NCBI GenBank assembly: GCA_944391685.1
Contig: CALXUM010000011.1
Span: 4,919 to 68,918, forward strand
DNA: 64,000 nt
DNA from: an uncultured Alphaproteobacteria bacterium
Lineage (GTDB): Bacteria > Pseudomonadota > Alphaproteobacteria > RF32 > CAG-239
Direction of reading: 5' to 3'
This document shows, piece after piece, positions 20,835 to 53,267 of the stretch. The notes beneath the pieces are model-generated. The model was given only the letters and a program-made list of their open reading frames with translations, was not told the origin of the DNA and did no database searches. Position 1 is the first letter of the stretch. Each line of letters starts with the position of its first letter. A program made the translations under genes and the position numbers.

Positions 20835-21125
20835 ATGCGTGAAATTATATTAAAAGCAGTGGCAAACCCGCCCAAAATCCTTTGGGGTCCCTTTTTGCCT
20901 ACAATGCTCAATATGGGTATCCAATTCCCAATAATGTTTATGTCTTTGGGAACGTTTGATGTAAATCCGTTGTTTTTTATGATGACAGTTGTCTTGGGCC
21001 ACTTGTTTTGTATAGTTTTAGGGATAAAAGAACCTCACATATCTGCAATGATCCAAGCATATGGTCAATCAGCCAAAACATCGCATAATCTTTATAAAGT
21101 AAAGGGGAATAAATTTGCACCTTGA
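20835..21125 (+). CDS. virB3: VirB3-family T4SS inner-membrane protein
   Basis: The protein is 96 aa. The pattern LKAVANPPKILWGPFLPTMLNMG with two hydrophobic segments is typical of VirB3. It lies immediately upstream of virB4 and overlaps it. Confidence 0.75.
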   Translation: MREIILKAVANPPKILWGPFLPTMLNMGIQFPIMFMSLGTFDVNPLFFMMTVVLGHLFCIVLGIKEPHISAMIQAYGQSAKTSHNLYKVKGNKFAP

Positions 21126-24528: not shown

Positions 24529-24535
24529 GTGCTAA

Positions 24536-25078: not shown

Positions 25079-25084
25079 ATCAAT

Positions 25085-35174: not shown

Positions 35175-38100
35175 ATGAATAAGGATAATTTAACACATTC
35201 CGAAAAATATATAAAAAAAACCAATCGCATAATTCTTGCGATTGGTATTACTTCTTTTTTTATATTTGTTTTTGGAGTTGTTCTATTAATCAAAAGCAAT
35301 CGTCAAGTTGATGAATATGAAGAGCCTGTTTTCACAGATAATGCAGATGTTCTTAATATGGAAACTCCTAATCTCCTTACCCAAAACATAGAATTTTCAA
35401 CTGTTGAGGAAGAAATTCCACTCACGACAACACCTAATCCGATTCCTATGGGGGAGGTCGTTTTGGGAACTGATGCTAAAAATGTTCTAACTTTAGGTAC
35501 AACAGGTAAAGCCGCAATACGCATAGTTTCTGTTGAATTAGCAGAACCACCGGCAGATGGTTTTAAGTTTGTCAATGGATGCAGTAATAAAATCCTTTCA
35601 GGAGAGGAAACTTGTCACATAACTATGAGTTGGGCACCAATAATTGCGGGAAACGTACAAAATAATTTTATTATAACATGGCACGAGGAAAATCTTGGTC
35701 AAGAAAATGCTAAATCGGCAAAAGTTCCTGTCACCGGTAACGCAGTAACTAAAGAAGATTGCACTATCTGTGAAACAGCCCCCCTGAGTGGAAACATATC
35801 TAAAAGCAAAACGGTTCGTTATGCCATAGGTCCGGATGGTAAAATTATTGGCAGCATAGACGAAGATGGCTATGTAAGAGATTCCAACGGCAATATTATA
35901 GGTCGAGTTAATGAAAATGGTTTAATTGTTGATGATACTGGCAATATTATAGGTGTAGCAGAAAATCGTCAAGCCGTATATGATGAGTTTGGTAATTTAT
36001 TGGGATATGTAAACCCTGATGGTACGGTTGTTGATAAAGATGGCAACACAATAGGTCGGGTTTTGCCGGATGGTACCGTCGTTGATATGAATGGTAAAAT
36101 AATAGGAAAGGCTGTAGATACAGGCTTTGTTTATGATGGAAATGGTAATATCATAGGCAGAGTCTTACCGGATGGTACCGTCGTTGACATGAAAGGAAAT
36201 GTTATAGGTCGAGTTAATGAAAATGGAGAAGTCATAGATTTAAACGGAAAAGTTATAGGAAGAGTTACAAAGCCAGGCAGAGTTGCAGTTAATGAAAACG
36301 GAAATGTCTTAGGTGTTGTTATGCCAGACGGTTCTGTTGTCGACAGCAATGGAAACATAATCGGATATGTTGATAAAAACGGTAATATTACAAATCCGGT
36401 AAAAATAGGTAAATTAGGTAAAGAAGTTCACTTAGCTTACGATAAAGATGGAAATATAATCGGATATGTTGATGAAAACGGTAATGTCGTTGATTTTGAA
36501 GGAAACATTATCGGTAAAATGCAAGAAGATGGTACCATTGTTGATAAAAATGGAAATATTATCGGAAAAGCCGGTGAAATAGTTAATCTAGCTTTTGACG
36601 AACAAGGCAACGTAATTGGATATGTAGGCGCAGACGGTAAAGTTTACGATTCTAATGGAAAAATTATAGGGACGGTAGATTCCAACGGTAACATCATAGG
36701 ATTAGAAGGAAATATTTTAGGCTCTCTTGTTGCAATAAATATGTTGCCGATTACTCCTCAAGGAACTCTATTAGGAATAGTTCAAAATGATGGTTCAATA
36801 GAAAACTCAAACAAACAAATTATTGGCAGAATTTTGCCTAATGGTCTCGTTCGTGAAAATAATGGTTCAAAAATTATTGCCAAAATGGTTAAAGGAGGCT
36901 TTGCTGTAGGGTTCGGTTGTAAACAACTTGGCTACCTAGATAAAGACGGCAAAATAAAGCAAGGAAATGAAGACACAAAGCTTAAAATAACTCCTGAAGG
37001 AGTCGTTATCGATTCGGAAGGAAATTATGTCGGAGAAATTATTAAAACAGGTAAAGTTTTTGATGCTAAATGCCAATATCTTGGAAAAGTTGATAATAAT
37101 GGAATAGTCAAAAATGATTCTGGACGTTATGTAGGTTGTGTCAATCCAGATGGTAGCGTTTTAGATGAAAAAGGCAACTTTATAGGTGCGTTGGGTCGAC
37201 AAGGAGCAGCAGTTGATTTTGATGGTAATTATTTGGGGCAGGTAAATGATAATAACATAGTTATTAGTGATGCAAAACTACCTATAGGATGTGTTGGACT
37301 TTTAGGTGATGTGTATAATAATAATGGAATTTACATAGGAAAAATAGCTGAAAATTTACAAGCATTTGACTTTGACGGAGAGTATATTAATCAAGTTGAT
37401 AATTTTGCAAAAGTAAAAATTTATGGCAAACCATCGGCAACATTAACAACAAACAATTTAGTTGTTGATGAAAATAATAATATTATTGGCAAAGCCTTTA
37501 ATGAAAAATCAGTAATTATAGATTCTTTTGGAAAAGTGATAGGAAATTTGTTTTCTGATGGAAATGTTTATAATTTTAAAGGTGTTTCTCAAGGTAAAAT
37601 TAAAAATGATGGCTCAGGATTTTACGGCAATTCTTTAGGAGTTACAGTTCCACAAGGAGAGGTTATAAACACTAAAGGAGAAATAGTTGGTATATCTTAT
37701 AATGGTAAGGTCATAAGCCGCTATGGAGATAACCTTGGATATGTGGATGCCAAAGGTTATTATTTTAATGCTAAGGGAGAATATCAAGGAGCCATTATAA
37801 GTAAAGGTCCGGCAATAGGATATGATGGTTCATATTTAGGATATGCGGGATCAGATTCTAAGGTTATAAATCTATCTGGACAGCTCTCAGGTTATTCGAC
37901 TCATGATGCAAAAGTTGTTGATACTAAAGGAAATATTATCGGAGAAGTAATTCCTGAAGATATTATGGTTGACATATGGGGTAATTATAAAGGTAGATTA
38001 AACTCCTTAGGAGATGTTTTAAACCTGAAAGGAGAAGCAGTTACAGCCATTTTACCGGGAGGATCAAGTGATAATGGTTTAACAATTCTAAAACACGGAT

Positions 38101-38582
38101 CAGTTATTGATTTTGGCGGTAATATTATAGGGGTTGTTATGCCTAATGGTAATGTAGCTAATTCTTCAAATGTTGCTATAGGCAGAGTTTTATCTGATGG
38201 AAATGTTGTCAATATATCTGGAAAATTAATCGGAGAAGTTGTTGATGGGGACATGGTTATAGGCAATAATGATAAAGTTGTGGGTTATGTAAAATTTGAT
38301 GGCAAAATAATAGGTAAAGATGCTAATATTATAGGCAAAACGCTTTCAAGCGGATTGGCTATAGATTCTAATAATGGTATTTTAGGAAAGATTTATCAAA
38401 TAGGTGCAACTGTTTTAGGAAATGATGGTCAATATAAGGGTCGTCTATCAGCAGATGGTTCAGTAATTGATTCTGGTGGTAAAAATATAGGTTATATAAA
38501 GAGTAACGGGTCATTTGTTGACTTAGATAAAAAAGTTTCTGGCTATGTACTTCAAGAAGTAGCAAAAAACCGGAGAAATTAA
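35175..38582 (+). CDS. bitopic repeat protein (1135 aa) with an Ig-like domain and about 55 tandem 17-residue DG/IIG repeats
   Basis: ORF 35142..38582. The ATG at 35175 lies after the virB9 stop. It has an N-terminal TM segment (IILAIGITSFFIFVFGVVLLI). An ASH/choice-of-anchor-D-like segment follows (VVLGTDAKNVLTLGTTGKAAIRIVSVEL...CSNKILSGEETCHITMSWAP). Degenerate repeats such as LPDGTVVDMNGKIIGKA, VDTGFVYDGNGNIIGRV and LPDGTVVDMKGNVIGRV then run from about 35815 to 38550. Confidence 0.8.
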   Translation: MNKDNLTHSEKYIKKTNRIILAIGITSFFIFVFGVVLLIKSNRQVDEYEEPVFTDNADVLNMETPNLLTQNIEFSTVEEEIPLTTTPNPIPMGEVVLGTDAKNVLTLGTTGKAAIRIVSVELAEPPADGFKFVNGCSNKILSGEETCHITMSWAPIIAGNVQNNFIITWHEENLGQENAKSAKVPVTGNAVTKEDCTICETAPLSGNISKSKTVRYAIGPDGKIIGSIDEDGYVRDSNGNIIGRVNENGLIVDDTGNIIGVAENRQAVYDEFGNLLGYVNPDGTVVDKDGNTIGRVLPDGTVVDMNGKIIGKAVDTGFVYDGNGNIIGRVLPDGTVVDMKGNVIGRVNENGEVIDLNGKVIGRVTKPGRVAVNENGNVLGVVMPDGSVVDSNGNIIGYVDKNGNITNPVKIGKLGKEVHLAYDKDGNIIGYVDENGNVVDFEGNIIGKMQEDGTIVDKNGNIIGKAGEIVNLAFDEQGNVIGYVGADGKVYDSNGKIIGTVDSNGNIIGLEGNILGSLVAINMLPITPQGTLLGIVQNDGSIENSNKQIIGRILPNGLVRENNGSKIIAKMVKGGFAVGFGCKQLGYLDKDGKIKQGNEDTKLKITPEGVVIDSEGNYVGEIIKTGKVFDAKCQYLGKVDNNGIVKNDSGRYVGCVNPDGSVLDEKGNFIGALGRQGAAVDFDGNYLGQVNDNNIVISDAKLPIGCVGLLGDVYNNNGIYIGKIAENLQAFDFDGEYINQVDNFAKVKIYGKPSATLTTNNLVVDENNNIIGKAFNEKSVIIDSFGKVIGNLFSDGNVYNFKGVSQGKIKNDGSGFYGNSLGVTVPQGEVINTKGEIVGISYNGKVISRYGDNLGYVDAKGYYFNAKGEYQGAIISKGPAIGYDGSYLGYAGSDSKVINLSGQLSGYSTHDAKVVDTKGNIIGEVIPEDIMVDIWGNYKGRLNSLGDVLNLKGEAVTAILPGGSSDNGLTILKHGSVIDFGGNIIGVVMPNGNVANSSNVAIGRVLSDGNVVNISGKLIGEVVDGDMVIGNNDKVVGYVKFDGKIIGKDANIIGKTLSSGLAIDSNNGILGKIYQIGATVLGNDGQYKGRLSADGSVIDSGGKNIGYIKSNGSFVDLDKKVSGYVLQEVAKNRRN

Positions 38583-38583
38583 T

Positions 38584-41500
38584 ATGCAAATAGCAGCATT
38601 TTTAAATAATTTAAAAATCTTGGTACAAAAAGTTGTTCCGTTAGTTTTTTGTTTTATGCTACTAAATATTTCTAATTCATTATCTCAAGAAATAACGGCC
38701 GTAGATTTTAATGGAGATTTGTTAGGAAAAGTTATTCCAGATGGTAAAGTAGTAAGCTTTAATAATCAACTCATAGGAAATGTTACTGCAGATAGCTTAA
38801 TAATAAATTTTGAAGGCAAATTAATTGGAGGTGTTATTCCACAAGGTGTGGCAATAGGCAACGATCTCCGTTTTTTAGGAAAAGTAAGCAGCGATGGTTC
38901 TGTTCGTTTGCCGTCAGGGCAAATTGTAGGAAAAGTTTTGCCTAGTGGTTTAGTTGTTAACGATTATTTCGATATTATAGGAGCGGTTGTCTTTCCAGGG
39001 TTGGTTTATTCTGATGATGGTAAAACAATAGGTCGTGTAAGCGGAGATGGCTTATATGTAAATTTGCAAGGCCAACAAATAGGAATAATAACCCCAGATG
39101 GTTACGCATATCGTCGTGTTGGTAATGATTATGTACTGGAAGGGCAGCTTATATCATCTAAAATGGTCGTTTCTCCGACAGGAGAATTTGTAGGTAGTGT
39201 CGTTCCAGGAGGAAATGTTTCTGACTTTAATTCTGAAATAATTGGCTATATTCATGCAAATGGATATGCGTATAATGAACAAAACCAAGTTATAGGTCAT
39301 ATTGTAAGGACAGGATATGCTTTTGATGATAATGGTTATTATTTGGGCTTTGTAAGTTACAATGGAGAAGTAATAAAAGGAGAAAAATTAGTTGGTAAAT
39401 TACGTGCTGATGGGCTGATTTCAGATTCTGAAAATAAAATAATTGGCTTTAAAATAGATATTAATGCTACGGCAACAAACCTATCCGGAAATTATTTAGG
39501 TCGAATTATGCCGGAAGGAAATTTGGCAAAGTCTAAAAATATAACATCGTTTGTTGGAGCCAGAGGAGTCGTTTTGGGGTCAAACGGAATGCCCGTTGGC
39601 CAAATATCTAGTACGGGACCTGTTTTTGATTATAAAGGATCTTTAATCGGACATGCTATGCCAGGAGGAAGCGTTGTTTCCCTAAAAGGGTCGTCAATAG
39701 GATATATGATAAATGAAGATGCATTTGATACTTCCGGTAAATTATTGGGATCCGTTTTGAAAGATCGTTTAATTTTTTCAGAAAATAGTACCTTTTCAGG
39801 TGTTAGTGGAATTAATAGCTATTTGGGAGAAGGAGATAATAAAACAATTATTTCTCCTTATGGCTATGTTTTTAATCAAAGCGGAAATCTAATTGGTAAT
39901 AATTTAATTATGTCGCCTTTATACATGGCTAACGGTATAGTTTCATCATATATGAACTTTAATGGTCTTGCTACAAACTCTATTGGTTCTGATGTTGGAA
40001 GAATTGTTTCTGGAGGTTGGGTCTTAGATGATCAAAATAAGCTTAGCTCTAAAAATAATAATTCATTTTATACTATAGGATATAAAGAAAAAGACCTTGG
40101 AATGTTAACCCAAAATAACCTGCTTTTAAGTACAAGCTTAAACATAGTGGGTAAAATACTTCCAGACAACTCTGTTGTTGAATCTTCTAAGGCAGGAACA
40201 GTTAATTATATGCCTGTTATAGGTTATGCGTATTCACAAAAAATTGCACTTGATTTTAAGGGGCAACAACTTGGATATGTTAATATTTTAGGAAATGTTA
40301 ATAACTTTAACAGTTCTCAAATAGGTAAAGTTGTTGAAAGGGGGCTTGTCGTTGATAATAATAATATTTTGATAGGCTTTGTTCAGGGATACCAAAGTGT
40401 TGTTAATGAAAATTGTGAATTTTTAGGAGTTATGACCCCAAGAGGTGATGTACAAAACTTTAGAGGGGTATATATTGGAAATATGTTATCAAATTCGCAG
40501 ACAATAGATGGTAATGGTCAACAGATAGGTTTTGCTCCAGCTAAAAATCCAATTGTTGATGATAGTGGCAAAATAATCGGTTTTCCTGATTCTACAGGTA
40601 GAGTTTGGGATTTTGAAAACAAATCTATAGGATGTTTAAACAAAAGAGGATATTTGTTTAATGCAGATGGTTTTTTAATTGGTAAAAGTTTAGATTATGA
40701 AACCGTAATCGACTTTAGCGGTAATATTATTGGCAGATCAGTTTTAGATGGTAGTATTATAGATAAAAATGAAAGAATAATAGGTTATCAACAAACAAAT
40801 GGCAATGTAAATAACCTTGAAGGCTTGCCTATAGGGATGATTTTTAAATATAAAATAGCCTTTAATTTAGATAATAAATTTATAGGTCGGGTTTTGCCAG
40901 ACGGTTCAGTTGTCGATTCAAATAATTCAAAATTAGGAAAAGTTAATTTTGAAGGATATGTAATTTCTGATAATCAAAAAATTGGGTATGCTCTCTATGA
41001 TTCTTATGTTTATAATGAAAAAGGAGATGTAATAGGTGTTATTGGCCGTAACGGAGAAGTCGTTGATTTCAAAAACCAAAATATCGGTCATATAGAAAGA
41101 GGATTCTTGGTCGATGCTTCTCAAAATATGGTAGGAAGAGGAAACAGAGATTATAATATAAGAGAATCTTCTAAGCTCGTTTTGGGAGAGCTTAATTTTA
41201 AGGGAGATGTGGTTAACTCTTTACAACTTGTTGTTGGCAAAATTTCATCTGCTGGAGAAATAATAAATAAAAATAAAGAAAAAATAGCTCAAGCATATCC
41301 TTTACAGTATTATAGTAAAGTTGCCAAAACGTTCGAACGTAAAATGATATTTGATAAAGATGGTAAATTTATAGGTTATTTAGATGAAAATGGTAATATA
41401 GTAGATAAAGACGGAAATGTTATAGCAACTGAAGACAATGAAGGAAATGCCGTTGATAAAGAAGGAAATATTATCGGTAGCAAAATTAATAATCGTCCTG

Positions 41501-43149
41501 TCTATGATAAAAACGGTAATGTTATAGGTCTTGCCAATGAAGAAGGAAATGTTATTGACGCCAATGGTAAAACAATCGGAAAAATAAATCAAAATGGTGA
41601 TGCCATAGATGCAAGTGGCAATATAATTGGAGGAATAAACTCTAATTGGTATGAAAAGACTCCTCAGCCTCCAACACTAACAAAAAAAGATGATGATATA
41701 AATCCGGCTTTAAAACTGCTAGAAAGTTCCCAACATAAAAAATCATTAGGCATAGCGTTAACTCCTGATGGAGAATATTTGGGAGAAATATTAGAAGACG
41801 GATCAGTTGTTAATAAAGAGGGAAAAGTCGTTGGCCGTCGTATGCCTGATGGTTTGGTTATAGATGATGATGGAACTTTGATTGGAATCGAAGAAATAAA
41901 ACGTTCAGAGGGCGAGGGAAGTGGTATTTTTGTTCCTCCAGGAACTTTTGGTCAGGGAGGCGCTTATGGAACCGGAGAGGGCTCTCCCGGAAATCTTGGC
42001 CCTGGAGGGGGTTATGGTCCAGGAGAAAGATATGATCCAATTCGCCAAGCAGCTTTAAATACAGCAATGAATGAGCGTAGAAAAAATATTGCTGTAGGGA
42101 AAATAAGTAGCGGTATACGTAAAGAAGCATTCGATGGAATGCAAAAAGATTGGTCAGAACAGGGTATTCCAAAGATAGTTTCTTCTTGGCGAGTTGATTT
42201 AAGCGAAATGATATTTGCAGATAAACCCATACCTGCAGTAATTTCTCGTGCTATAGATAGCAATAATCCGGCTCCGATAACAGCTTTTGTTGAAAGAAAT
42301 GTTTATGCGGAAGAAGGACGTAATGTTATTATTCCAGCGGGAAGTCGCTTGGTCGGAACATTAGGTAGTGTTACGGCAACTACAGAAGCAACATCAGAAT
42401 CAGCGCGTGTTCAAATATCATGGGAAAGGCTTATTCGTCCTGATGGTTCTCTTTTTGTTTTACAGGGATTAACAGCCGATGCTCAAGGTAGAGGAGGTGC
42501 GTTAGGCTATGTCGATCAACAATTATTTAAAAAATATACCCTTCCCGTTATGACCACTAGCTTAACTAGTGCTACTTCATATTTTATGGCTCCAAACAGC
42601 GAAAGTAGTACTGAAAATGAAACACCTCGTCAGCAGGCTGCTAATGATGCTAGACAAAACTTCTTAAATGAAATGAACCAAGTTTTTGATGAGATTTTAG
42701 CAGATAAATCAAATATCCGTCCTATGACATATATTCCTGCAGGAACAAGAATTATTGTTTTTCCTAATGCTGATTTGTGGTTAAGAACAGTGGAAAGAGA
42801 TCAGGAATCTTCTGTGTTATTAGAAAAACCAAAAGTTTTTCTTGATGATGGGGAAGAAACAGCTAAAAGAGAAACTCGTCAAAGAGAAAGCAAGCAAAAA
42901 GTTGTTTCAAGTGCTGAAACAGGAGGAGATGTTGTTTATGATCCTGATACCGGAGATGTCGATAGTGCTAATAATAAACCGATTCCACTAATTTCATCAT
43001 CAGATGTTAAAAATAAAAATTCTAAATCATCAAGCCCCAGTCTGGTTCCTCCCCCGCCTCCTCCCAGCTCAGCAGTAAACAGCTCTTCAATAGCTAATAC
43101 AGGAGGAGGCGGAGCAACAACAAATAACGGCGTTCCGGCATTGTTCTGA
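38584..43149 (+). CDS. virB10: VirB10 with an N-terminal repeat expansion of about 1000 aa
   Basis: The ATG lies 1 nt after the upstream stop (TAAtATG). It has an N-terminal signal anchor. The same 17-residue repeats run from about nt 38700 to 41640, followed by a Gly/Pro-rich linker. The canonical VirB10/TrbI C-terminal domain is at about nt 42170-42785 (IIPAGSRLVGTLGSV, VQISWERLIRPDGSLFVLQGLTADAQGRGGALGYVDQQ, YIPAGTRIIVFPNADLW). A Pro-rich tail (PPPPPPS) ends the protein. Confidence 0.85.
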   Translation: MQIAAFLNNLKILVQKVVPLVFCFMLLNISNSLSQEITAVDFNGDLLGKVIPDGKVVSFNNQLIGNVTADSLIINFEGKLIGGVIPQGVAIGNDLRFLGKVSSDGSVRLPSGQIVGKVLPSGLVVNDYFDIIGAVVFPGLVYSDDGKTIGRVSGDGLYVNLQGQQIGIITPDGYAYRRVGNDYVLEGQLISSKMVVSPTGEFVGSVVPGGNVSDFNSEIIGYIHANGYAYNEQNQVIGHIVRTGYAFDDNGYYLGFVSYNGEVIKGEKLVGKLRADGLISDSENKIIGFKIDINATATNLSGNYLGRIMPEGNLAKSKNITSFVGARGVVLGSNGMPVGQISSTGPVFDYKGSLIGHAMPGGSVVSLKGSSIGYMINEDAFDTSGKLLGSVLKDRLIFSENSTFSGVSGINSYLGEGDNKTIISPYGYVFNQSGNLIGNNLIMSPLYMANGIVSSYMNFNGLATNSIGSDVGRIVSGGWVLDDQNKLSSKNNNSFYTIGYKEKDLGMLTQNNLLLSTSLNIVGKILPDNSVVESSKAGTVNYMPVIGYAYSQKIALDFKGQQLGYVNILGNVNNFNSSQIGKVVERGLVVDNNNILIGFVQGYQSVVNENCEFLGVMTPRGDVQNFRGVYIGNMLSNSQTIDGNGQQIGFAPAKNPIVDDSGKIIGFPDSTGRVWDFENKSIGCLNKRGYLFNADGFLIGKSLDYETVIDFSGNIIGRSVLDGSIIDKNERIIGYQQTNGNVNNLEGLPIGMIFKYKIAFNLDNKFIGRVLPDGSVVDSNNSKLGKVNFEGYVISDNQKIGYALYDSYVYNEKGDVIGVIGRNGEVVDFKNQNIGHIERGFLVDASQNMVGRGNRDYNIRESSKLVLGELNFKGDVVNSLQLVVGKISSAGEIINKNKEKIAQAYPLQYYSKVAKTFERKMIFDKDGKFIGYLDENGNIVDKDGNVIATEDNEGNAVDKEGNIIGSKINNRPVYDKNGNVIGLANEEGNVIDANGKTIGKINQNGDAIDASGNIIGGINSNWYEKTPQPPTLTKKDDDINPALKLLESSQHKKSLGIALTPDGEYLGEILEDGSVVNKEGKVVGRRMPDGLVIDDDGTLIGIEEIKRSEGEGSGIFVPPGTFGQGGAYGTGEGSPGNLGPGGGYGPGERYDPIRQAALNTAMNERRKNIAVGKISSGIRKEAFDGMQKDWSEQGIPKIVSSWRVDLSEMIFADKPIPAVISRAIDSNNPAPITAFVERNVYAEEGRNVIIPAGSRLVGTLGSVTATTEATSESARVQISWERLIRPDGSLFVLQGLTADAQGRGGALGYVDQQLFKKYTLPVMTTSLTSATSYFMAPNSESSTENETPRQQAANDARQNFLNEMNQVFDEILADKSNIRPMTYIPAGTRIIVFPNADLWLRTVERDQESSVLLEKPKVFLDDGEETAKRETRQRESKQKVVSSAETGGDVVYDPDTGDVDSANNKPIPLISSSDVKNKNSKSSSPSLVPPPPPPSSAVNSSSIANTGGGGATTNNGVPALF

Positions 43150-43160: not shown

Positions 43161-44129
43161 ATGAGTTTTACAGTCTTGGAATCAATTTTGCGTCCTTTAT
43201 CTTATTGGTATAATCAAGATAATATAGAAGAAGTTGCAATAAATCGCTCAGGTCAGGTTTGGCTTCGTTTGCGAGGTAAAAGAGCATATCCCTGGGTTAT
43301 GTATAAAGATGAAAAACTTACCAAACAATATTTAACAGATTTGTTATATATTATAGCAAATACTTATGAACTTCCATTTGACCCTATTCAGGGCAATCCT
43401 GTGGTTTATGCAACAATACCCGGAGAACATCGCTTTTCTGCCATTTGTGGTCGTAATGTAATGTATGATAATGATGACTTGACGGGGGGTATTGCTTTAA
43501 CAATTCGTGTCCATGCCGATGATGTGGCTTTTGGATTGGGGGACTATGGCTTAACTCAAGGTAGTGGTCTTCATAAAATTAACCCTCTAAAACAAATAAA
43601 AGATCCAGAAGACCCATATGAAAGATTACTTTTAAGCATTAAAAGAGGTGATCATATTTTGGTATCTGGAGCCACGTCAACTGGAAAGACAACATTTCTT
43701 AATAACTTGCTTAAAATATTAGATATTAATAAACGCATTTTAACAATAGAAGATACCAGAGAATTAATAGTCCCACATCCTAATCGTGTGCATATAGTGT
43801 TGTCTCGTACGGAACAAACTAATGCCTTAACATATGCCAAAGTAATAGATTTAGTTGTCCGTTTTACCCCTGATGCCATTATTGGAGGAGAAATATCAAC
43901 AGGTAATGCTGGAGCGATTTGGGAATTGATGGGGTCAGGTCATGATAACTGCTTAGCAACTATTCATGCAGAAAGCTCTGAAGCTGCATATCAAGCATTT
44001 ACTGATCGTATTTTACATACATATCCTACAATTGATCGTAAAAAAACTATAGAAGAAATGCGACAAAAGTTACGAGTTGTTCAAATCAACCGAGACGGTA
44101 ACCTTAGAGCCGTAACAGAAGTTACTTAG
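43161..44129 (+). CDS. virB11: VirB11 T4SS ATPase
   Basis: Motifs seen: Walker A VSGATSTGKTTFL, Asp box LTIEDTRELIV, Walker B-like DAIIGGEIS and His box GHDNCLATIHAES. Confidence 0.9.
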   Translation: MSFTVLESILRPLSYWYNQDNIEEVAINRSGQVWLRLRGKRAYPWVMYKDEKLTKQYLTDLLYIIANTYELPFDPIQGNPVVYATIPGEHRFSAICGRNVMYDNDDLTGGIALTIRVHADDVAFGLGDYGLTQGSGLHKINPLKQIKDPEDPYERLLLSIKRGDHILVSGATSTGKTTFLNNLLKILDINKRILTIEDTRELIVPHPNRVHIVLSRTEQTNALTYAKVIDLVVRFTPDAIIGGEISTGNAGAIWELMGSGHDNCLATIHAESSEAAYQAFTDRILHTYPTIDRKKTIEEMRQKLRVVQINRDGNLRAVTEVT

Positions 44130-44563: not shown

Positions 44564-45319
44564 TTAAATTGGAGGAATGTTTAATTGAACAATATTTCCA
44601 GGTCTAATTTTTGTATTTGAATATCGCATATTCCCAGTTTCAATAACAAATCGCTGCCTTCCTGTAAGTTGTGATGCTAAATCATAAAAATCTCTGGCAT
44701 TTAACTCTTGTCGTTGAGGATTCATGATATATAAAACACATCCCTGAGTTCTTTCTGCAACACCACATCTGGCTCTACCTCTGGGAACTTCTGGATTTAC
44801 AACTACCCCTTGCAAGCCGTTACGCACAACTTTTTCTTCGGAAAATAAAAATCTTCCGGCTAAAATTCCAACAAAGAACAAAACTACACCCAATAAAATA
44901 AGAATTTTCTTGGTTAAATAAGGGGGAAAATCATCTCTGCTTCCGAAAGAATAATTTCCAGTAATCAAATCTTCTTCCTCAAGAAATTTAGGTGTGTTAG
45001 AATTATCAAAATTTTCAGGAATATTATTTTGAGCAGGTAATTTTGCATTATCATCAAGATAAGCATCTAAATCAAAAGCATTGATAGTTGGCGGCAAATT
45101 ATTATTTTCAATTGTCTCTTTTAATTCTTCATGTTGAAAAGGTTCAATATTTAAGTTTTTATCAGTGTCAAATTTATTCTGTTCAAAAGAATCTTGCGTT
45201 TCATTAAGAGGAAAATTATGAGGTTTTTGAGGCATTATACGATTAATTGGCCTCTTAACCTTTTTTAATTGAGGCTTTTTGATGTTTTGTTGATTTGCAG
45301 GACCCGTGTTGTTATCCAT
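44564..45319 (-). CDS. single-pass membrane protein of unknown function
   Basis: AGGAGG lies upstream of the ATG. The N-terminus is disordered and Asn/Pro/Gln-rich. It has one TM segment (ILILLGVVLFFVGILAGRFLF) and a C-terminal globular domain of about 90 aa. It is coupled to the upstream lipoprotein gene. Confidence 0.4.
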   Translation of the reverse strand: MDNNTGPANQQNIKKPQLKKVKRPINRIMPQKPHNFPLNETQDSFEQNKFDTDKNLNIEPFQHEELKETIENNNLPPTINAFDLDAYLDDNAKLPAQNNIPENFDNSNTPKFLEEEDLITGNYSFGSRDDFPPYLTKKILILLGVVLFFVGILAGRFLFSEEKVVRNGLQGVVVNPEVPRGRARCGVAERTQGCVLYIMNPQRQELNARDFYDLASQLTGRQRFVIETGNMRYSNTKIRPGNIVQLNIPPI

Positions 45320-45345
45320 AAAAATTTATCCTCCTAAACGAAAGC

Positions 45346-46605
45346 TTATATGTTCTTTTGCAAATGCTTTGATGTCTTTAGTGTCTTAATAATTCTTGGA
45401 ACCATAAATACAACTGTTTCTGATTTAGGCTTCTGTACTCCAAAAATTTCATTTGGAATACCAATAACTAAAAAGTTTTCACCTAAACGGCTTCTTATAT
45501 CAAATTGAGTAATTTCTCCATTTTTAGCCTCCAAGGTTATACTTGAAAAAATTTTGTCATTTTGTTCAAAAGAAGCTTTTGCCAATATAGAAAGATTGGT
45601 TTCCATAGAATTTCTATTGGCACATTTACCTATGTCAAAACGAGAAAACCATAAATTAGGAACTACAAATTTTCCTTCCGCTACCAAATTTACCTGAGCC
45701 TGTTGTCCCAAAAAATTTCTTAAACTATCTACATTAATATCATTTGAAGTTGTTAAAATACGCCCCAATACGCCTTGTTTAGTGCTTTTTATTGAGCCAA
45801 AATCAAATGTACTTAATAGTCTTTGCCATTCAATATCTTGATTGTTGTAAGGATATAGAGTGAAAACACGTACATCAAAAGCTATCAAAATAGGATTTTC
45901 TTCAAAGTATCCAATCAAATTTACAATTTGATTTTTTAATTCATAATCAGCATCAAAAGTTATTGTGTAATCATCAAAATCAGCCGTAAAATCTGTTATT
46001 CCGGCACCACGCAATACGTCAAGAATGGCTAACAATATAGGACGGGATTGTGGTACATAAAGACTGAAATTAGCCTTTCTGCTTATTCTCAAAGTTTTAC
46101 TGCTTGAATTATATGTATAATAAATCTCAGCAGCCTGAGTAATCATATCAACAACTTCTGTAAGCTCCCCTCTTAAATTTTCAGCCGATATACTTGCGTA
46201 AGGGGCATCTTTGGCAACTAATTTTATTCCCGCCTCCTTGGTAAGTTTAAGCAAAGCTTTTTCAGCAGGCATTGTTTCAAATGAAAAACCTGTAACCTCA
46301 AAACGAGGTAATAAATCATTGCGACCATTCCTTTGTAAATTAAAAGCTTTTATATTATAAGGAATTGTCGAAATCATTTGCTGAGTGTTCCAGTTAACAA
46401 AACAACGCAAAGGAGTTTCCAAATCAAGTTGATTTGCTCCTCTAGGAGTCCTTATTTCTGGATACGATGATTTTTCCATACTTGCTGTATATACGGGAGA
46501 TCTTGTTTCTTCAATGTTTGATATGTCAGAGGATTCTCGGTTGCTACCGCACGCTGGCGTAAAAAACAAAGCCAAAACAAACAAATATTTTAGTTGTGTC
46601 ATCAT
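45346..46605 (-). CDS. outer-membrane lipoprotein with secretin-like features (short, 419 aa)
   Basis: The lipobox is FFTPAC. An N0-like segment is present (MPAEKALLKLTKEAGIKLVAKD...LRGELTEVVDMITQAAEIYYTY). A beta-alpha-beta-beta-alpha-like segment follows. The secretin-style C-terminus is ETVVFMVPRIIKT. I did not see the canonical secretin-core Gly-rich motifs. Confidence 0.3.
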   Translation of the reverse strand: MMTQLKYLFVLALFFTPACGSNRESSDISNIEETRSPVYTASMEKSSYPEIRTPRGANQLDLETPLRCFVNWNTQQMISTIPYNIKAFNLQRNGRNDLLPRFEVTGFSFETMPAEKALLKLTKEAGIKLVAKDAPYASISAENLRGELTEVVDMITQAAEIYYTYNSSSKTLRISRKANFSLYVPQSRPILLAILDVLRGAGITDFTADFDDYTITFDADYELKNQIVNLIGYFEENPILIAFDVRVFTLYPYNNQDIEWQRLLSTFDFGSIKSTKQGVLGRILTTSNDINVDSLRNFLGQQAQVNLVAEGKFVVPNLWFSRFDIGKCANRNSMETNLSILAKASFEQNDKIFSSITLEAKNGEITQFDIRSRLGENFLVIGIPNEIFGVQKPKSETVVFMVPRIIKTLKTSKHLQKNI

Positions 46606-46609
46606 TGTC

Positions 46610-47173
46610 TTACTTTACTCCGTTAGGTCTGGAAACCTTGTCTTGTCGAGGCTGTTGTTTTTGTTGAGATATAAAATTTTGCTGTTGATTTCTAGGGCTT
46701 TGATTAGGTTGTTTATGTAATAATTTATCTACAACTTCATCCATTGACATACCAGCACCTATTGTTGGGTCAACAGATTTATCAATAGCCCCCAAAGCTT
46801 CTTTCATTTTGTTAAGCTCATCTTGATCTTGTTTAATCATTTCAGGAGAGGCGTTGTTTTTTAGTTCAGTCTTAAATTCGTTAAGATTCTTCTTCAAAGC
46901 ATTAATTCCGCCTGCCAATTTTTTTTCAACATATGAGTATAAATCAGGATGCGCAACAATATAATCACCTGTTTCACAGATTTCTTCAAGAATATCAAGA
47001 ATATAACCATAAAAAGGATATTCTTCCATGGCAATATTTCCTTGCCTAACACAGCGAGCAGCAATTCTTGAAATTGTACGATCATAATAATCTTTCAGCA
47101 AAACATAATTATCAACATACCAAACATCTCCGGCAATATTCTTACCGCTGCTGAAAGATTCATCGTTCTTCAT
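46610..47173 (-). CDS. hypothetical cytoplasmic protein
   Basis: It has no signal peptide and a Gln-rich tail. Its stop lies 4 nt before the start of the lipoprotein gene. Confidence 0.4.
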   Translation of the reverse strand: MKNDESFSSGKNIAGDVWYVDNYVLLKDYYDRTISRIAARCVRQGNIAMEEYPFYGYILDILEEICETGDYIVAHPDLYSYVEKKLAGGINALKKNLNEFKTELKNNASPEMIKQDQDELNKMKEALGAIDKSVDPTIGAGMSMDEVVDKLLHKQPNQSPRNQQQNFISQQKQQPRQDKVSRPNGVK

Positions 47174-47242
47174 TTATATTACTCCTTATAGCATATCTTT
47201 ATTATAATTTAATTTAGCAAAAAAGCTTTGTAAATTATTATT

Positions 47243-49411
47243 TTAATCTTGTAGGATACTATTTTTATATGGATCTTGTTTTATATCATTTTGAGCAGAG
47301 TCTTTTATTAAAGAATTATTTATGGTTGGTTGAATGAAATTACCACTTTTAAAAGATATAGGTTCATTAACTGCATTTTGAAAAAATAAGTTTCCACTAC
47401 ATATATAACTATTTTTATCAATAGGTTGCAAGTTATCATTGTTAAAATAAACATCTTGAGAATTAGCCTCTTCAACATATGCCCATTCCCAATCTTGTTC
47501 TTTAGAATTTTTATTTTCTTCAATATTGTTATTTGAGTCTGATGTCCCAAATCCCCAATCATCTTGAATATCATAAGAATATTCAGATAAAACATTGTCT
47601 GTTTGGCTGCTTATATCATTTGTTTCATTAAAAATCCATGAATTATTCTCTTCAGAAGAAAAATTTTCATTGTCGCTATTTTCAATAACGATATCTTGAT
47701 CTTGAATTTTTCCGCTTTCATCTTTTTCGTTTTTAAAATTTTCTTTTGAAATAGTTATAGGTAAATCTTCTTCAGCATTATTAATAGGAGATTCCTCACT
47801 AAAATCACCATCGTATGATCCTTTAAAATTAGCGGTTTCGGAATTTATAAATTTATCATTATTAGAGGTTTCTTTTTGAAAAATATCGTCATTAGCAGAA
47901 GAAACATTATCATCAGCAACCCTTATAAAACCTTCATCCAAAACAGATCCTATTGGATCTTTTTTATTTTTCTTTTTTTTCTTCTTTTTTTTCTTTTCTG
48001 CAACAACAGATACAGTGTTGATATTTTTTTCTAATAAATTTTCAGAAGAAAACTCTTTTTCATGATAGTTATTATCTTCATAATTTTGTTTTTGTAATAT
48101 CTCGTCATTAATTGGTAATGGATTGTTTATAACAACTGGTTTTTGGGCCATTGCTTCAATAATATTTTGTGTCGATATTTCTTGACTTTCTTTTATGGCC
48201 ATGGCAATAACAGAAGACAATTCTCGTGTTTGTTCCTTTATTGAAGTCCTGTAAAACTGTGATTGTGCAGACATTAAAGAATTAACCATGTTTTCCAAAT
48301 TGTTATTATTGGCGGCTTGAATTGAAGCAATTTTATCAACAATCATATTAATCTGAGGAGTATAATCTACTGTGTTAATTTGAATGTTATTTGCATTATT
48401 GTTATTAGCAGAAGCATTTCCAGAGTTGTTTTGTTGTATCATCATTTGAACAAGACGTTGTTGAGAAGTATTAATAAGTTTAGCAATTTCCAAAGTGTCT
48501 GTTTTTTGTCTCTCACTTATTACATTAAGTATCTTGCTAAAATTTTCTTGAGCTTTATTAAATTCTTTAGTCACTTCAAGACTGGATGAATTATTATTTT
48601 GTGTAGCTTCAACTTTAGCTAATCTGGTTACAATTTGCTGTTGGCTTTCTAAAAGCATTCTTATTAGGTGTTTTGTTTCCTCGCTTATTTTAGGTTGAGA
48701 AATTTGTCTTTCATAACCATCTTTATTAGTTTCTACACCCATTGCAGCTATCTTATTTTGAGATTCGCTTAGCATTTTCGCTATCGTTTTCATATCTTCT
48801 CGGCGTTCATTGTTTTCACTTTGCAAAACTTTAACAATTTCCAGCTGTGTTTGACCTAGCGTATTAATAATATTCTTAATTTCATCTCGTTGTTCTGAGT
48901 TGCTCTTTTGTAAAGCATTTGCTAAAACAACAGCAAATTCTTGTGCAAAATTTTTATCCATTGATGGATTGTTAGTAATATTTTGTGAAGCAGAAGAATA
49001 TGTCGTCGGAGAAATAGTTTGTTGAGATATTGGAGCTTGCAATTTTGTAGCTGCTTGTATTTGAGCTTCTGCTAAAGCTGTCGCTAAAATTTTAGCTTTA
49101 GAAACCTCATCGTCAGCAGCGTCAATATCTTTAGTTTCTTTTAATCGTGCAGATTTTTCTATACCAGCTTTTTCAGCCAACTCATCCACATAGTCCTGTA
49201 AAATTGCTCCTCCGGGTAAGGAGCTAAACAAACTCCTTATATCCACAGGTAAAGCAAGTAACATTTTATTGAAGGCTTCTTTCTTTTCAGCAGAAAAAAT
49301 ATGTAATTGTCTATAAATATTTAAAAAACGTTGAGCAACGATAACAGGGTCTTCTTCCCCGTTTCGTTGGGCCTTTCTCCTTGCTTCAGATGTCTTATTT
49401 TGCTCAAGCAT
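47243..49411 (-). CDS. large (722 aa) low-complexity Asn/Gln/Glu-rich protein of unknown function
   Basis: It has no signal peptide or TM segment, a poly-Lys run (KKKKKKKKKNKK, nt about 47960-47998) and an acidic Asn/Asp/Ser-rich C-terminal third. Confidence 0.45.
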   Translation of the reverse strand: MLEQNKTSEARRKAQRNGEEDPVIVAQRFLNIYRQLHIFSAEKKEAFNKMLLALPVDIRSLFSSLPGGAILQDYVDELAEKAGIEKSARLKETKDIDAADDEVSKAKILATALAEAQIQAATKLQAPISQQTISPTTYSSASQNITNNPSMDKNFAQEFAVVLANALQKSNSEQRDEIKNIINTLGQTQLEIVKVLQSENNERREDMKTIAKMLSESQNKIAAMGVETNKDGYERQISQPKISEETKHLIRMLLESQQQIVTRLAKVEATQNNNSSSLEVTKEFNKAQENFSKILNVISERQKTDTLEIAKLINTSQQRLVQMMIQQNNSGNASANNNNANNIQINTVDYTPQINMIVDKIASIQAANNNNLENMVNSLMSAQSQFYRTSIKEQTRELSSVIAMAIKESQEISTQNIIEAMAQKPVVINNPLPINDEILQKQNYEDNNYHEKEFSSENLLEKNINTVSVVAEKKKKKKKKKNKKDPIGSVLDEGFIRVADDNVSSANDDIFQKETSNNDKFINSETANFKGSYDGDFSEESPINNAEEDLPITISKENFKNEKDESGKIQDQDIVIENSDNENFSSEENNSWIFNETNDISSQTDNVLSEYSYDIQDDWGFGTSDSNNNIEENKNSKEQDWEWAYVEEANSQDVYFNNDNLQPIDKNSYICSGNLFFQNAVNEPISFKSGNFIQPTINNSLIKDSAQNDIKQDPYKNSILQD

Positions 49412-53219: not shown

Positions 53220-53267
53220 AACTTTTATCCTTACAAATCAATGCTTTTTATTATTCCTGCTTTCCTC

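What the first reader, a model, noticed from the sequence alone, without database searches (positions are those of the whole stretch)
35175..41640. More than 100 copies of a 17-residue DG/IIG repeat, forming a 1135-aa stand-alone protein and about 1000 aa inserted into VirB10
The unit is roughly (L/N/V)-x-(D/N)-G-x-V-(V/I/Y)-D-x-x-G-x-(I/V)-(I/L)-G-x-(V/A). It runs nearly uninterrupted from about 35815 to 38550 and from about 38700 to 41640. Both proteins begin with their own membrane anchor. The first also has an Ig-like (ASH/choice-of-anchor-D-like) domain, and only the second ends in the VirB10/TrbI barrel domain. The genes are joined by TAAtATG. The DNA copies are degenerate. The longest identity I saw is 20 nt, ccggatggtaccgtcgttga, present twice. 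The array is therefore old and under protein-level selection, not a recent expansion.

Giant repeat-bearing VirB10 homologues exist (H. pylori CagY, Legionella DotG), but with different repeat types. The motif looks like a shortened YD-type beta-hairpin. It also resembles GKVVD..G..IG repeats that I recall from poorly characterised fungal and bacterial proteins. A beta-hairpin stack of about 1000 residues between the inner-membrane anchor and the outer-membrane barrel implies a very unusual periplasmic or extracellular structure.
Basis: partly seen in the sequence, partly recalled or inferred. Interest (0 to 1): 0.8.

Follow-up and report, generated by a model that had tools for sequence, protein, structure and literature searches.

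The report
Giant split VirB10 with beta-hairpin arrays
Two adjacent genes in the type IV secretion cluster of an uncultured gut alphaproteobacterium are the two halves of one giant VirB10 channel subunit, whose normally short periplasmic linker has been replaced by about 2,000 residues of 17-residue beta-hairpin ("beta-flower") repeats; nobody has described such a core subunit.

Summary
Both ORFs (35175-38582, 1135 aa; 38584-43149, 1521 aa) have a strict 17-residue period. At least 74-80 units score above a level where shuffled sequence gives one or fewer, and the arrays have room for about 115.

The repeat is not a new motif. It belongs to the Pfam beta-flower/DUF3659 families (Bflower_2, E 7e-68 and 2e-60), a fold known only from AlphaFold models and with no known function.

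New findings:
1. The gene pair is conserved in about 75 species-level gut Alphaproteobacteria genomes, so it is not a misassembly.
2. More distant relatives carry one fused 1,500-2,400 aa gene: membrane anchor, Ig domain, hairpin array and TrbI barrel. Split forms make one clade nested among fused forms. The "stand-alone" protein is therefore the N-terminal half of a VirB10 that underwent gene fission.
3. The downstream half starts with a conserved Sec signal peptide (AxA|QEITAIDFNG), not a membrane anchor.
4. The arrays are colinear between species and under purifying selection, unlike the recombining repeats of CagY.

Likely role: a periplasmic scaffold or spacer of an enlarged secretion core. 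The two halves would re-associate through the well-conserved ends beside the split. This mechanism is inferred, not shown.

Verdict: a new variant of a known kind; interest about 0.6.

The parts
35175..38582 (+). p1: the N-terminal half of the split giant VirB10 (1135 aa)
   Evidence: ORF. Orthologue present in 69+ related genomes directly upstream of virB10. The same N-terminal module heads the fused VirB10s.
35196..35294 (+). p1 membrane anchor. The AF2 helix spans aa 8-40; its hydrophobic core is RIILAIGITSFFIFVFGVVLLI. A short basic cytoplasmic tail precedes it.
   Evidence: AF2 helix 8-40 with pLDDT 81-95. Conserved in the alignment A1.
35421..35747 (+). ASH/PapD-like Ig beta-sandwich domain (aa 83-191)
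   Evidence: AF2 pLDDT above 90. Foldseek hits: HYDIN PapD-like 2e6j E 5.8e-7 with TMt 0.67, CEP192 ASH, VesB Ig. Pfam ASH only E 0.0028, 18 bits, below the cutoff of 27. Several orthologues carry PF15780.
35823..38549 (+). p1 array of 17-residue beta-hairpins (aa 217-1125; about 53 slots, 36-42 detected)
   Evidence: Pfam Bflower_2 E 7e-68 in 10 stretches. AF2 gives one 5-residue and one 3-residue strand per unit, pLDDT 80-93.
38541..38579 (+). Conserved p1 C-terminal tail GYVLQEVAKNRRN
   Evidence: Near-identical in the orthologues listed. The last 50 aa are 76% identical on average across 69 species.
38580..38586 (+). Gene junction TAA-T-ATG. It marks the fission point and suggests translational coupling.
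   Evidence: In orthologues virB10 opens 1-5 nt after the p1 stop, in varying frames, so there is no conserved recoding.
38584..43149 (+). p2: the C-terminal half of the split giant VirB10 (1521 aa)
38584..38685 (+). p2 Sec-type signal peptide (aa 1-34; predicted cleavage SLS|QEITAVDF)
   Evidence: All 75 split orthologues have the motif. Position -1 is A in 70, S in 4 and G in 1. Position -3 is A in 47 and V in 19. The h-region is 11-13 residues and the n-region is basic. Based on the -3/-1 rule; SignalP was not run.
38698..41898 (+). p2 array of 17-residue beta-hairpins (aa 39-1105; about 63 slots, 38 detected). It is interrupted by degenerate stretches around aa 395-520 and 840-920 and by a spacer at aa 1020-1060.
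   Evidence: Pfam Bflower_2 E 1.8e-60 in 8 stretches. AF2 hairpins at aa 920-1020 and 1056-1105 with pLDDT 73-90.
41899..42033 (+). Gly-rich linker (conserved core NLGPGGGxGPGERYDP)
   Evidence: Near-invariant glycines in the alignment A2. Low pLDDT.
42034..42843 (+). VirB10/TrbI beta-barrel domain with two long helices (aa 1303-1335 and 1348-1376, placed like the antenna projection)
   Evidence: Pfam TrbI E 3.3e-36. PDB sequence hits: ComB10 E 8e-21, TrwE, X. citri VirB10, CagY, TraF. Foldseek top 20 hits are all VirB10 homologues. Helices in the AF2 model (moderate confidence).
42844..43146 (+). Low-complexity Ser/Pro-rich C-terminal tail ending in the conserved P-A/Q-L-F
   Evidence: The last four residues are PALF in 37 and PQLF in 33 of 75 orthologues. 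Fused forms end in PELF or EPLF.
31597..35166 (+). Context: two virB8 paralogues (31597-32421 and 32713-33456) and virB9/cagX with a weak C-terminal SPOR match (33463-35166)
   Evidence: Pfam.
43161..44129 (+). Context: virB11 ATPase
   Evidence: Pfam T2SSE E 6.6e-22.

Best explanation
p1 and p2 are the two halves of a single giant VirB10, the subunit that links the inner and outer membrane in a type IV secretion system. The system is chromosomal and belongs to vertebrate-gut Alphaproteobacteria.

History (supported by sequence evidence):
- An ancestral VirB10 replaced its short periplasmic linker with a long array of 17-residue beta-hairpins of the beta-flower/DUF3659 family.
- In the ancestor of this clade the gene broke once, inside the array.
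- The upstream half keeps the cytoplasmic tail, the TM anchor, an ASH-type Ig domain and about 53 hairpin slots.
- The downstream half gained a Sec signal peptide. It keeps about 63 hairpin slots, a Gly-rich linker, the TrbI barrel with its antenna helices and a conserved ...P-x-L-F C-terminus.

Mechanism (inferred):
- Both arrays lie in the periplasm. p1 is tethered to the inner membrane and p2 is inserted in the outer-membrane core with VirB9.
- The two chains re-associate non-covalently through the p1 C-terminal and the mature p2 N-terminal hairpins. These are the best conserved parts of the arrays. The contact would restore the envelope-spanning link that ordinary VirB10 provides in one chain.
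- The roughly 2,000 residues of hairpin modules act as a structural spacer or cage that builds an enlarged periplasmic body. If copy number is 14-fold, as in canonical core complexes, this amounts to about 4 MDa.
- They are not a variable surface antigen.
For: VirB10 identity and gene position between virB9 and virB11.

Repeat family: Bflower_2 at 226 and 202 bits against a cutoff of 38. The family is described in PMC10584680.

Clade-wide conservation: 75 complete loci hold a p1 orthologue of 1037-1737 aa next to a VirB10 of 1396-2366 aa.

Fused forms:
- L079 (2150 aa) sits in the same virB8-virB8-virB9-X-virB11 order.
- At least 16 representatives at 50% clustering, 1498-2406 aa, carry both the p1 N-module and TrbI. 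Pfam confirms this for P0175.

Direction of the event: in an NJ tree of the TrbI domain, split forms are one clade nested among fused forms. The split forms group together in 182 of 200 bootstraps, the fused forms in 1 of 200.

p1 aligns to P0175 residues 1-1090 and p2 to residues 677-2097.

Signal peptide: an AxA site is present in 75 of 75 orthologues.

Topology: TM helix and Ig domain in the AF2 model.

Conservation: it peaks beside the split. The last 150 aa of p1 are 63-76% identical and p2 aa 50-250 are 63-76%, against 27-50% in the array interiors.

Structural rather than variable role: colinear arrays, indels of whole units in p1 (28 of 47 within 2 residues of a multiple of 17), dN 0.14-0.22 with saturated dS, and no DNA-level tandem repeat.

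Parallel case: the same hairpin array follows the RcpC domain of a Tad-pilus CpaB, another periplasm-spanning subunit.
Against: - No experiment and no complex model supports the p1-p2 contact. Both AF2 jobs were monomers.
- I never saw coordinates, so I cannot say whether the hairpins close into 4-, 5- or 6-petal flowers or form something continuous.
- The sequence shows no 85-residue super-period, and indels show no preference for 5 units.
- The outgroup of the TrbI tree is not robustly monophyletic (30 of 200 bootstraps), so the root, and with it the direction fused-to-split, rests partly on parsimony.
- p1 and p2 lengths do not co-vary (rho -0.13, p 0.28), which argues against a simple fixed-length ruler.
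- Signal-peptide cleavage is predicted only by rule.
- The beta-flower fold itself has no known function.
Confidence: 0.6

Rival explanations
1. Peptidoglycan or envelope anchoring. The hairpin arrays are cell-wall-binding modules that fix the machine in the sacculus. They would not mainly serve to bridge the two halves.
For: [quoted passage not shown] In this cluster VirB9 has a weak SPOR match and one VirB6-like protein carries a Peptidase_M23 domain, so the machine looks unusually engaged with peptidoglycan. This reading is compatible with the split-VirB10 history.
Against: There is no tested ligand for any beta-flower protein, and the 'cell wall-binding' label is only an annotation. The SPOR match is below the Pfam cutoff (19 vs 21 bits). 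About 115 binding modules per subunit pair seems excessive for anchoring. The arrays are acidic (pI about 4.9-5.0), and I can draw no argument from that.
Confidence: 0.15
2. Surface-exposed, host-facing repeat region, as proposed for the CagY middle repeat region and the variable region of DotG. It would serve adhesion or immune modulation and change by recombination.
For: Analogy with CagY and DotG, the other giant VirB10 homologues (PMC5954226; PMC6761968). The organisms live in vertebrate guts. Array length differs between species: VirB10 is 1396-2366 aa.
Against: DNA copies are only 60-80% identical, the longest exact repeat is 20 nt and TRF finds no array, so there is no substrate for frequent recombination. 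The arrays are colinear, and length is nearly fixed (about 1499-1530 aa) across some 30 close species. dN is low. The region lies N-terminal to the outer-membrane barrel, which places it in the periplasm by VirB10 topology (established knowledge).
Confidence: 0.1
3. p1 is an originally independent accessory protein, for example a DotF-like inner-membrane partner. It shares the repeat by convergence or domain transfer, and the fused genes are secondary fusions.
For: The root of the TrbI tree is weak. DotF is a precedent for a separate inner-membrane partner of a VirB10 homologue (PMC6761968).
Against: Fused forms are many, diverse and never monophyletic (1 of 200 bootstraps), while split forms are one clade (182 of 200). 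Fused forms have the canonical VirB10 topology of an N-terminal anchor and a C-terminal barrel. No locus shows an anchored VirB10 plus a separate p1. The p2 signal peptide looks like an add-on in front of a conserved hairpin.
Confidence: 0.08
4. RHS/YD-type shell. The hairpins form a large closed beta-cocoon like Rhs, Tc-toxin or teneurin YD shells, possibly enclosing a cargo.
For: Pfam RHS_repeat gives a summed E of 2.7e-14 for p1. JGI names some fragments 'YD repeat-containing protein'.
Against: No single RHS stretch is significant (0 stretches). The period is 17 and the predicted strands are only 3-5 residues. No Rhs core or toxin domain was reported in either protein. The beta-flower models score far higher (226 bits).
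Confidence: 0.04
5. Assembly or annotation artefact, such as a collapsed or chimeric repeat or a frameshifted single gene.
For: It comes from a metagenome contig at about 4.6x coverage. Repeats are error-prone, and public protein hits are mostly truncated fragments.
Against: The same protein occurs on 5 contigs. The same two-gene layout is found in 75 independent genomes, with a conserved stop, a conserved signal peptide and a conserved p1 C-terminus. The DNA copies are too divergent to collapse.
Confidence: 0.01

Closest known systems
Helicobacter pylori CagY (Cag7), the giant VirB10 homologue of the Cag T4SS
   Same: It has a C-terminal VirB10/TrbI domain (p2 matches CagY chains, E 2e-5 to 5e-4). 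A very large repeat region lies between the membrane anchor and the barrel. It is part of an enlarged core complex.
   Different: By published description (PMC5954226, PMC10706595), CagY repeats have nearly identical DNA copies that recombine during infection. Here the unit is a 17-residue beta-hairpin with degenerate DNA and stable, colinear arrays, and the gene is split in two.
Legionella/Coxiella DotG (IcmE), the VirB10 homologue of the Dot/Icm T4BSS, and its partner DotF
   Same: A TrbI C-terminus with a variable repeat-bearing middle region of 1,000 to over 1,500 aa (PMC6761968). A separate inner-membrane partner (DotF) interacts with it, which is a functional analogue of the p1/p2 arrangement.
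   Different: DotG repeats are pentapeptide repeats shaped by high recombination. This is a T4A-type cluster (virB2-B11 order). p1 derives from VirB10 itself and was not recruited as a distinct protein.
Beta-flower proteins (Pfam PF21785 Bflower_2, PF21784 Bflower, clan CL0395 with Tubby C-terminal domains; Durairaj et al. 2023, PMC10584680) and DUF3659 (PF12396)
   Same: The hairpin unit matches these models far above threshold. It has the [DNEQ]xxG tip motif and short antiparallel strands.
   Different: The described members are small single domains of about 100 aa with 4, 5 or 6 petals, often a central helix or a lipoprotein signal, and no function. Here there are 900-1,070-aa uninterrupted arrays embedded in a secretion-system subunit. 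Closure into flowers was not verified.
Canonical VirB10/TrbI/TraF/TrwE (A. tumefaciens, pKM101, R388) and ComB10
   Same: The barrel domain (ComB10 E 8e-21), the gene order virB8-virB9-virB10-virB11, and predicted antenna-like helices.
   Different: Canonical proteins are 350-450 aa with a TM anchor and a Pro-rich linker in one chain. Among 72,556 plasmids only the TrbI part finds matches and none covers the hairpins.
Tad/Flp pilus CpaB (RcpC) with a beta-flower array (P0209, 900 aa, Gammaproteobacteria MAGs)
   Same: An N-terminal anchor and a periplasmic domain, followed by about 650 aa of the same hairpin repeats in a periplasm-spanning subunit of another envelope machine.
   Different: A different machine and domain (RcpC instead of TrbI). 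It probably acquired the array independently.
RHS/YD repeats
   Same: Beta-hairpin repeats with a D-x-x-G-like turn, and a weak Pfam cross-match.
   Different: The period is about 21 residues with longer strands, forming a closed shell with an Rhs core. None of these features was found here.

Membership tests
VirB10/TrbI family (T4SS core subunit) | C-terminal TrbI beta-barrel domain | tested here: met
   Pfam PF03743 E 3.3e-36, 125 bits vs cutoff 35, aa 1210-1400. ComB10 2bhv E 7.8e-21. The Foldseek top 20 hits are all VirB10 homologues.
VirB10/TrbI family (T4SS core subunit) | Two-helix antenna projection inside the barrel domain | tested here: inconclusive
   AF2 predicts helices at aa 1303-1335 and 1348-1376, but local pLDDT is about 55-73 and no coordinates were inspected.
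VirB10/TrbI family (T4SS core subunit) | N-terminal cytoplasmic tail and a single TM anchor on the same polypeptide as the barrel | tested here: not met
   p2 starts with a signal peptide carrying an AxA site. The anchor is on p1. The feature is met in fused relatives (L079, P0175 and others).
VirB10/TrbI family (T4SS core subunit) | Gene located between virB9 and virB11 in a virB-type cluster | tested here: met
   The order is virB8, virB8, virB9, p1, p2, virB11, with virB2, virB3 and virB4 upstream.
VirB10/TrbI family (T4SS core subunit) | Physical presence in the core complex and energy-dependent coupling of the inner and outer membrane | not testable with these tools
   Requires biochemistry or cryo-EM.
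Beta-flower (Pfam PF21785/PF21784, clan CL0395) | Match to the family HMM above the gathering score | tested here: met
   p1 scores 226 bits and p2 202 bits vs cutoff 38. Bflower scores 90 and 86 bits vs cutoff 25.
Beta-flower (Pfam PF21785/PF21784, clan CL0395) | Semi-conserved [DNEQ]xxG motif at the hairpin tip; short antiparallel strands | tested here: met
   The unit consensus is VVDfNGNIIGKVlPnG. AF2 strands of 5 and 3 residues per unit. The motif is defined in PMC10584680.
Beta-flower (Pfam PF21785/PF21784, clan CL0395) | Hairpins close into a shallow 8-, 10- or 12-stranded barrel (4-, 5- or 6-fold flower) | tested here: inconclusive
   Only the secondary structure and pLDDT of the models were available. 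There is no 85-aa super-period. Indels of 1-6 units occur without a preference for 5.
DUF3659 (PF12396) | Match to the family HMM above the gathering score | tested here: met
   p1 E 4.1e-30, 104 bits vs 24.8. p2 27.7 bits vs 24.8.
RHS/YD repeat proteins | Individually significant YD repeats plus an Rhs core/shell | tested here: not met
   RHS_repeat summed E 2.7e-14, but no stretch passes on its own. No core domain was reported.
CagY-type repeat region | Near-identical DNA direct repeats that allow in-frame recombination and strain-to-strain variation | tested here: not met
   The longest exact repeat is 20 nt and TRF finds none. The arrays are colinear between species.
DotG-type repeat region | Pentapeptide (period 5) repeats | tested here: not met
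   The period is 17, with no peak at 5 or 10 beyond the internal structure of the unit.
ASH / PapD-like Ig domain (PF15780) | HMM match above the gathering score | tested here: not met
   E 0.0028, 18.2 bits vs cutoff 27, although several orthologues carry a precomputed PF15780 hit.
ASH / PapD-like Ig domain (PF15780) | PapD-like beta-sandwich fold | tested here: met
   AF2 pLDDT above 90 for aa 83-191. Foldseek: 2e6j E 5.8e-7 with TMt 0.67, 6fvi E 9e-7 with TMt 0.62, VesB 4lk4.

The most novel reading that the evidence does not exclude
Beta-flower hairpin arrays are a general 'periplasmic spacer' module of trans-envelope machines, seen here in VirB10 and independently in Tad-pilus CpaB. In this clade they would build a T4SS core unlike any solved one. 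It would be a multi-megadalton periplasmic, or partly extracellular, lattice of several hundred small beta-barrels. The link between the inner-membrane and outer-membrane halves would be non-covalent, so it could be assembled, released or regulated, acting as a clutch between the ATPases and the outer-membrane gate.
Probability: 0.2. Interest if true: 0.8.

Novelty: new variant of a known kind. Interest (0 to 1): 0.6.

Why it matters
VirB10 is the one subunit that spans the whole envelope of type IV secretion systems. It is thought to transmit ATP-driven signals from the inner membrane to the outer-membrane gate.

Only two large elaborations were known: CagY and DotG. Both come from pathogens and both have fast-evolving repeats. 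This would be a third, structurally different elaboration:
- it contains about 2,000 residues of stable beta-hairpin modules;
- it is conserved across dozens of species of prevalent but uncultured gut Alphaproteobacteria;
- the protein has been cut in two.

A naturally split VirB10 offers a test of whether covalent continuity is needed for envelope-spanning signalling.

It also gives the first functional context for the beta-flower fold. That fold was discovered from AlphaFold models in 2023 and has no assigned role. Its recurrence in CpaB points to a job in the periplasm of envelope-spanning machines.

Tried and rejected
1. Sequence search of PDB with p1 found nothing. Foldseek of both models found no solved structure for the hairpin part; all hits were to the Ig domain or the VirB10 barrel.
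2. The first protein-database searches returned only 170-730-aa relatives. This briefly suggested that relatives have a short insert and that this window holds a unique expansion. Reading the genomic loci showed those hits are truncated fragments and that full genes are 1,400-2,400 aa.
3. I looked for a 5-unit (85-aa) super-period that would indicate fixed 5-petal flowers. There is none, and indels show no preference for 5 units.
4. I tested whether p1 and p2 lengths compensate each other, as in a ruler model. They do not correlate.
5. dN/dS against the closest relative could not be computed because dS is saturated. Only dN is reported.
6. The indel-length analysis for p2 is uninformative, because the middle of the array aligns poorly.
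7. Programmed frameshifting across TAAtATG to make one chain is rejected. Orthologues have 1-5 nt spacers in different frames, and a signal peptide follows the junction.
8. The RHS/YD, CagY-type and DotG-type repeat classifications are rejected (see the membership tests).
9. Literature searches linking DUF3659, Bflower or RF32 with VirB10 or type IV secretion, and VirB10 with gene fission, found nothing relevant in the held library.
10. Cluster look-ups gave no organism names for the fused forms.

Full report
**1. What is there**

The region holds two co-oriented ORFs.
- p1 runs from 35175 to 38582 (1135 aa from the ATG that orthologues also use; the ORF opens at TTG 35142).
- p2 runs from 38584 to 43149 (1521 aa).
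- They are joined by TAA-T-ATG.

Pfam places them in a virB-type cluster:
- virB2-like genes, then a 96-aa ORF with no Pfam hit at the virB3 position (20835-21125), then virB4;
- several unannotated coiled-coil proteins and a 1318-aa protein;
- two virB8 genes, and virB9/cagX with a weak SPOR match;
- p1, p2 and virB11.

**2. The repeat is real**

Identity autocorrelation peaks sharply at lags 17, 34 and 51 in both proteins.

A profile built from the units has the consensus VVDfNGNIIGKVlPnG. It finds 36 units in p1 and 38 in p2 at a score where shuffled arrays give about 0.5. An earlier model found 80.

The arrays span p1 aa 217-1125 and p2 aa 39-1105, which gives room for about 53 + 63 units. 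The p2 array ends near 41898, not 41640.

At the DNA level:
- the quoted 20-mer occurs twice, at 36066 and 36168;
- copies are 60-80% identical at spacings that are multiples of 51 nt;
- Tandem Repeats Finder reports no array.

**3. The repeat has a name**

Both proteins match Pfam Bflower_2 (E 7e-68 and 1.8e-60), Bflower and DUF3659. They match RHS_repeat only weakly, with no individually significant stretch.

The beta-flower fold was defined from AlphaFold models by Durairaj et al. 2023 (PMC10584680):
- small shallow barrels of 8, 10 or 12 short strands, whose hairpin "petals" carry a [DNEQ]xxG tip;
- no relative in the PDB;
- no known function.

My AF2 model of p1 aa 1-372, built on an alignment of 36 orthologous fragments, gives one 5-residue and one 3-residue strand per 17-residue unit at pLDDT 80-93. 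The model of p2 aa 901-1521 shows the same for the last nine units.

I had no access to coordinates, so I cannot say whether the hairpins close into flowers. Two observations make a rigid 5-petal module doubtful. The sequence has no 85-residue super-period. Indels between species span 1 to 6 units without preference.

**4. Other domains**

- p1 aa 8-40 is a confident helix with a 22-residue hydrophobic core, which makes it a TM anchor.
- p1 aa 41-77 is disordered.
- p1 aa 83-191 is a beta-sandwich with pLDDT above 90. It matches ASH/PapD-like domains: HYDIN 2e6j (E 5.8e-7, TM 0.67), CEP192 and VesB. The Pfam ASH hit is sub-threshold.
- The p2 C-terminus is a bona fide VirB10 barrel: TrbI E 3.3e-36; ComB10 E 8e-21; TrwE, X. 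citri VirB10, CagY and TraF. It has two long predicted helices where the antenna projection sits.

**5. Relatives**

A scan of one genome per species found 78 loci. All are uncultured Alphaproteobacteria from human, mouse, deer, sheep, rabbit and chicken guts. From memory these correspond to the GTDB order RF32; I did not test this.

In 75 loci with complete genes, a p1 orthologue of 1037-1737 aa lies directly upstream of a VirB10 of 1396-2366 aa.

About 30 close species keep VirB10 at 1499-1530 aa. The arrays align colinearly, at 40-89% identity per 100-aa block against about 90% for the barrel. Against the closest relative, dS is saturated while dN is 0.14 for the p1 array, 0.22 for the p2 array and 0.05 for TrbI. 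The array is old and maintained by purifying selection.

**6. The stand-alone protein is half of VirB10**

The most divergent locus, L079, has a single 2150-aa ORF in the same virB8-virB8-virB9-X-virB11 order. It holds the p1-type tail, anchor and Ig domain, about 1,600 aa of period-17 hairpins, and TrbI.

An exhaustive profile-free search with p1 found 949 representatives at E <= 1e-3. At least 16 of them, 1498-2406 aa long, carry both the p1 N-module and a TrbI domain (Pfam check of P0175).

In an NJ tree of the TrbI domain, split forms are one clade nested among fused forms. The split group is recovered in 182 of 200 bootstraps and the fused group in 1 of 200. The canonical outgroup is not robustly monophyletic (30 of 200). 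The polarity therefore also leans on parsimony: the fused form has the canonical VirB10 topology.

p1 aligns to P0175 residues 1-1090 and p2 to residues 677-2097, so the arrays also grew after, or differently from, the fused lineage.

Conclusion: there was a single gene fission inside the array of a giant VirB10.

**7. Consequences of the split**

All 75 split VirB10s begin with a basic n-region, an 11-13-residue h-region and a site fitting the -3/-1 rule. Position -1 is A in 70, S in 4 and G in 1; position -3 is A in 47 and V in 19. The conserved mature start Q/E/A-EITAIDFNG follows. In this window the site is SLS|QEITAVDF.

p2 is predicted to be released into the periplasm and held only by its barrel.

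Conservation across 69 species peaks next to the split. The last 150 aa of p1 are 63-76% identical and end in the near-invariant GYVLQEVAKNRRN. p2 aa 50-250 are 63-76% identical. The interiors of the arrays fall to 27-50%.

I read this as the signature of a p1-p2 interface that restores the inner-to-outer membrane link.

**8. Mechanism proposed**

Shown by sequence or structure prediction:
- the topology elements, the family assignments and the fission;
- the signal peptide motif;
- the stability of the arrays.

Inferred:
- both arrays are periplasmic;
- they form a structural spacer or cage of an enlarged core complex (about 290 kDa per p1/p2 pair, or about 4 MDa if 14-fold as in canonical outer-membrane core complexes);
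- the halves associate through the conserved ends.

Rivals are listed with their tests: peptidoglycan anchoring, a CagY-like variable surface region, independent origin of p1, and an RHS-like shell. The CagY-like reading is disfavoured by the lack of recombination substrates and by the fixed, colinear arrays.

**9. Comparison with the known**

CagY and DotG are the known giant VirB10 homologues. Their repeats are different in kind and evolve by recombination (PMC5954226; PMC6761968).

No plasmid in PLSDB has a VirB10 that matches beyond the TrbI part.

Other, divergent VirB10s also carry beta-flower arrays (P0233, 914 aa; P0220, 1973 aa). So does a gammaproteobacterial Tad-pilus CpaB, after its RcpC domain (P0209). 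The module has therefore been recruited more than once by periplasm-spanning subunits.

I found no paper connecting beta-flower or DUF3659 with VirB10 or any secretion system in the held library.

**10. Verdict**

This is a new variant of a known kind: a VirB10 with a named but functionless repeat family, plus a gene fission. It is not a new kind of system.

It would interest T4SS structural biologists and those studying the beta-flower fold. Interest is 0.6.

Noticed in passing
window 985-13433 (minus strand): A complete type IVb pilus cluster lies directly beside the T4SS: a bundlin/PilS-type pilin (4260-4829), two T2SSE ATPases, T2SSF, PilO, a secretin (11069-12697) and TcpQ. A PP2C phosphatase and a VWA protein sit at the far end. 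The pairing recalls the IncI/R64 thin pilus plus its transfer system, but here it is next to a T4A-type machine.
   Followed up: partly
window 50643-59584 (minus strand): Four large VirB6/TrbL-like proteins in a row (858, 918, 428 and 750 aa). I recall multiple VirB6 paralogues as a Rickettsiales trait. The 918-aa protein (53268-56024) also carries a Peptidase_M23 domain, a possible built-in peptidoglycan hydrolase.
   Followed up: no
window 33463-35166: VirB9/CagX is 567 aa long and has a weak C-terminal SPOR (peptidoglycan-binding) match: E 0.0018, 19 bits, just below the cutoff of 21.
   Followed up: no
window 15319-20687: Two or three VirB2-like genes are present. One is a 1390-aa protein (16515-20687) with a weak VirB2/TrbC-like stretch at aa 432-476 and two weak hairpin-profile hits.
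   Followed up: no
window 23623-31646: Six ORFs lie between virB4 and virB8: 301, 180, 245, 162, 466 and 1318 aa. None has a significant Pfam match, and two or three draw weak coiled-coil-type matches. They are probably clade-specific T4SS components.
   Followed up: no
window 43135-43146 (p2 C-terminus) and orthologues: The VirB10 C-terminus ends in a conserved P-A/Q-L-F-COOH after a low-complexity Ser/Pro tail (PALF in 37, PQLF in 33 of 75). Fused forms end in PELF or EPLF. A terminal Phe recalls outer-membrane-protein C-terminal signals, but its function here is unknown.
   Followed up: partly
P0209 (900 aa, Gammaproteobacteria MAGs); P0233 (914 aa); P0220 (1973 aa): Beta-flower hairpin arrays also occur after the RcpC domain of a Tad-pilus CpaB, and in other, much more divergent VirB10 proteins. 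The module has been recruited repeatedly by periplasm-spanning subunits.
   Followed up: partly
L064, L066, L067 (VirB10 of 2194-2366 aa) and L074-L077 (p1 of 1653-1737 aa): Some lineages have expanded one half by 600-850 aa relative to the common 1510/1138-aa sizes. The expansion affects either p2 or p1, not both, and there is no overall length correlation.
   Followed up: partly
window 44564-49411 (minus strand): Four ORFs (251, 419, 187 and 722 aa) directly downstream of virB11 have no Pfam match at all. A double-HTH regulator follows at 49533-50501. No VirD4 or relaxase was seen among the larger ORFs scanned.
   Followed up: no
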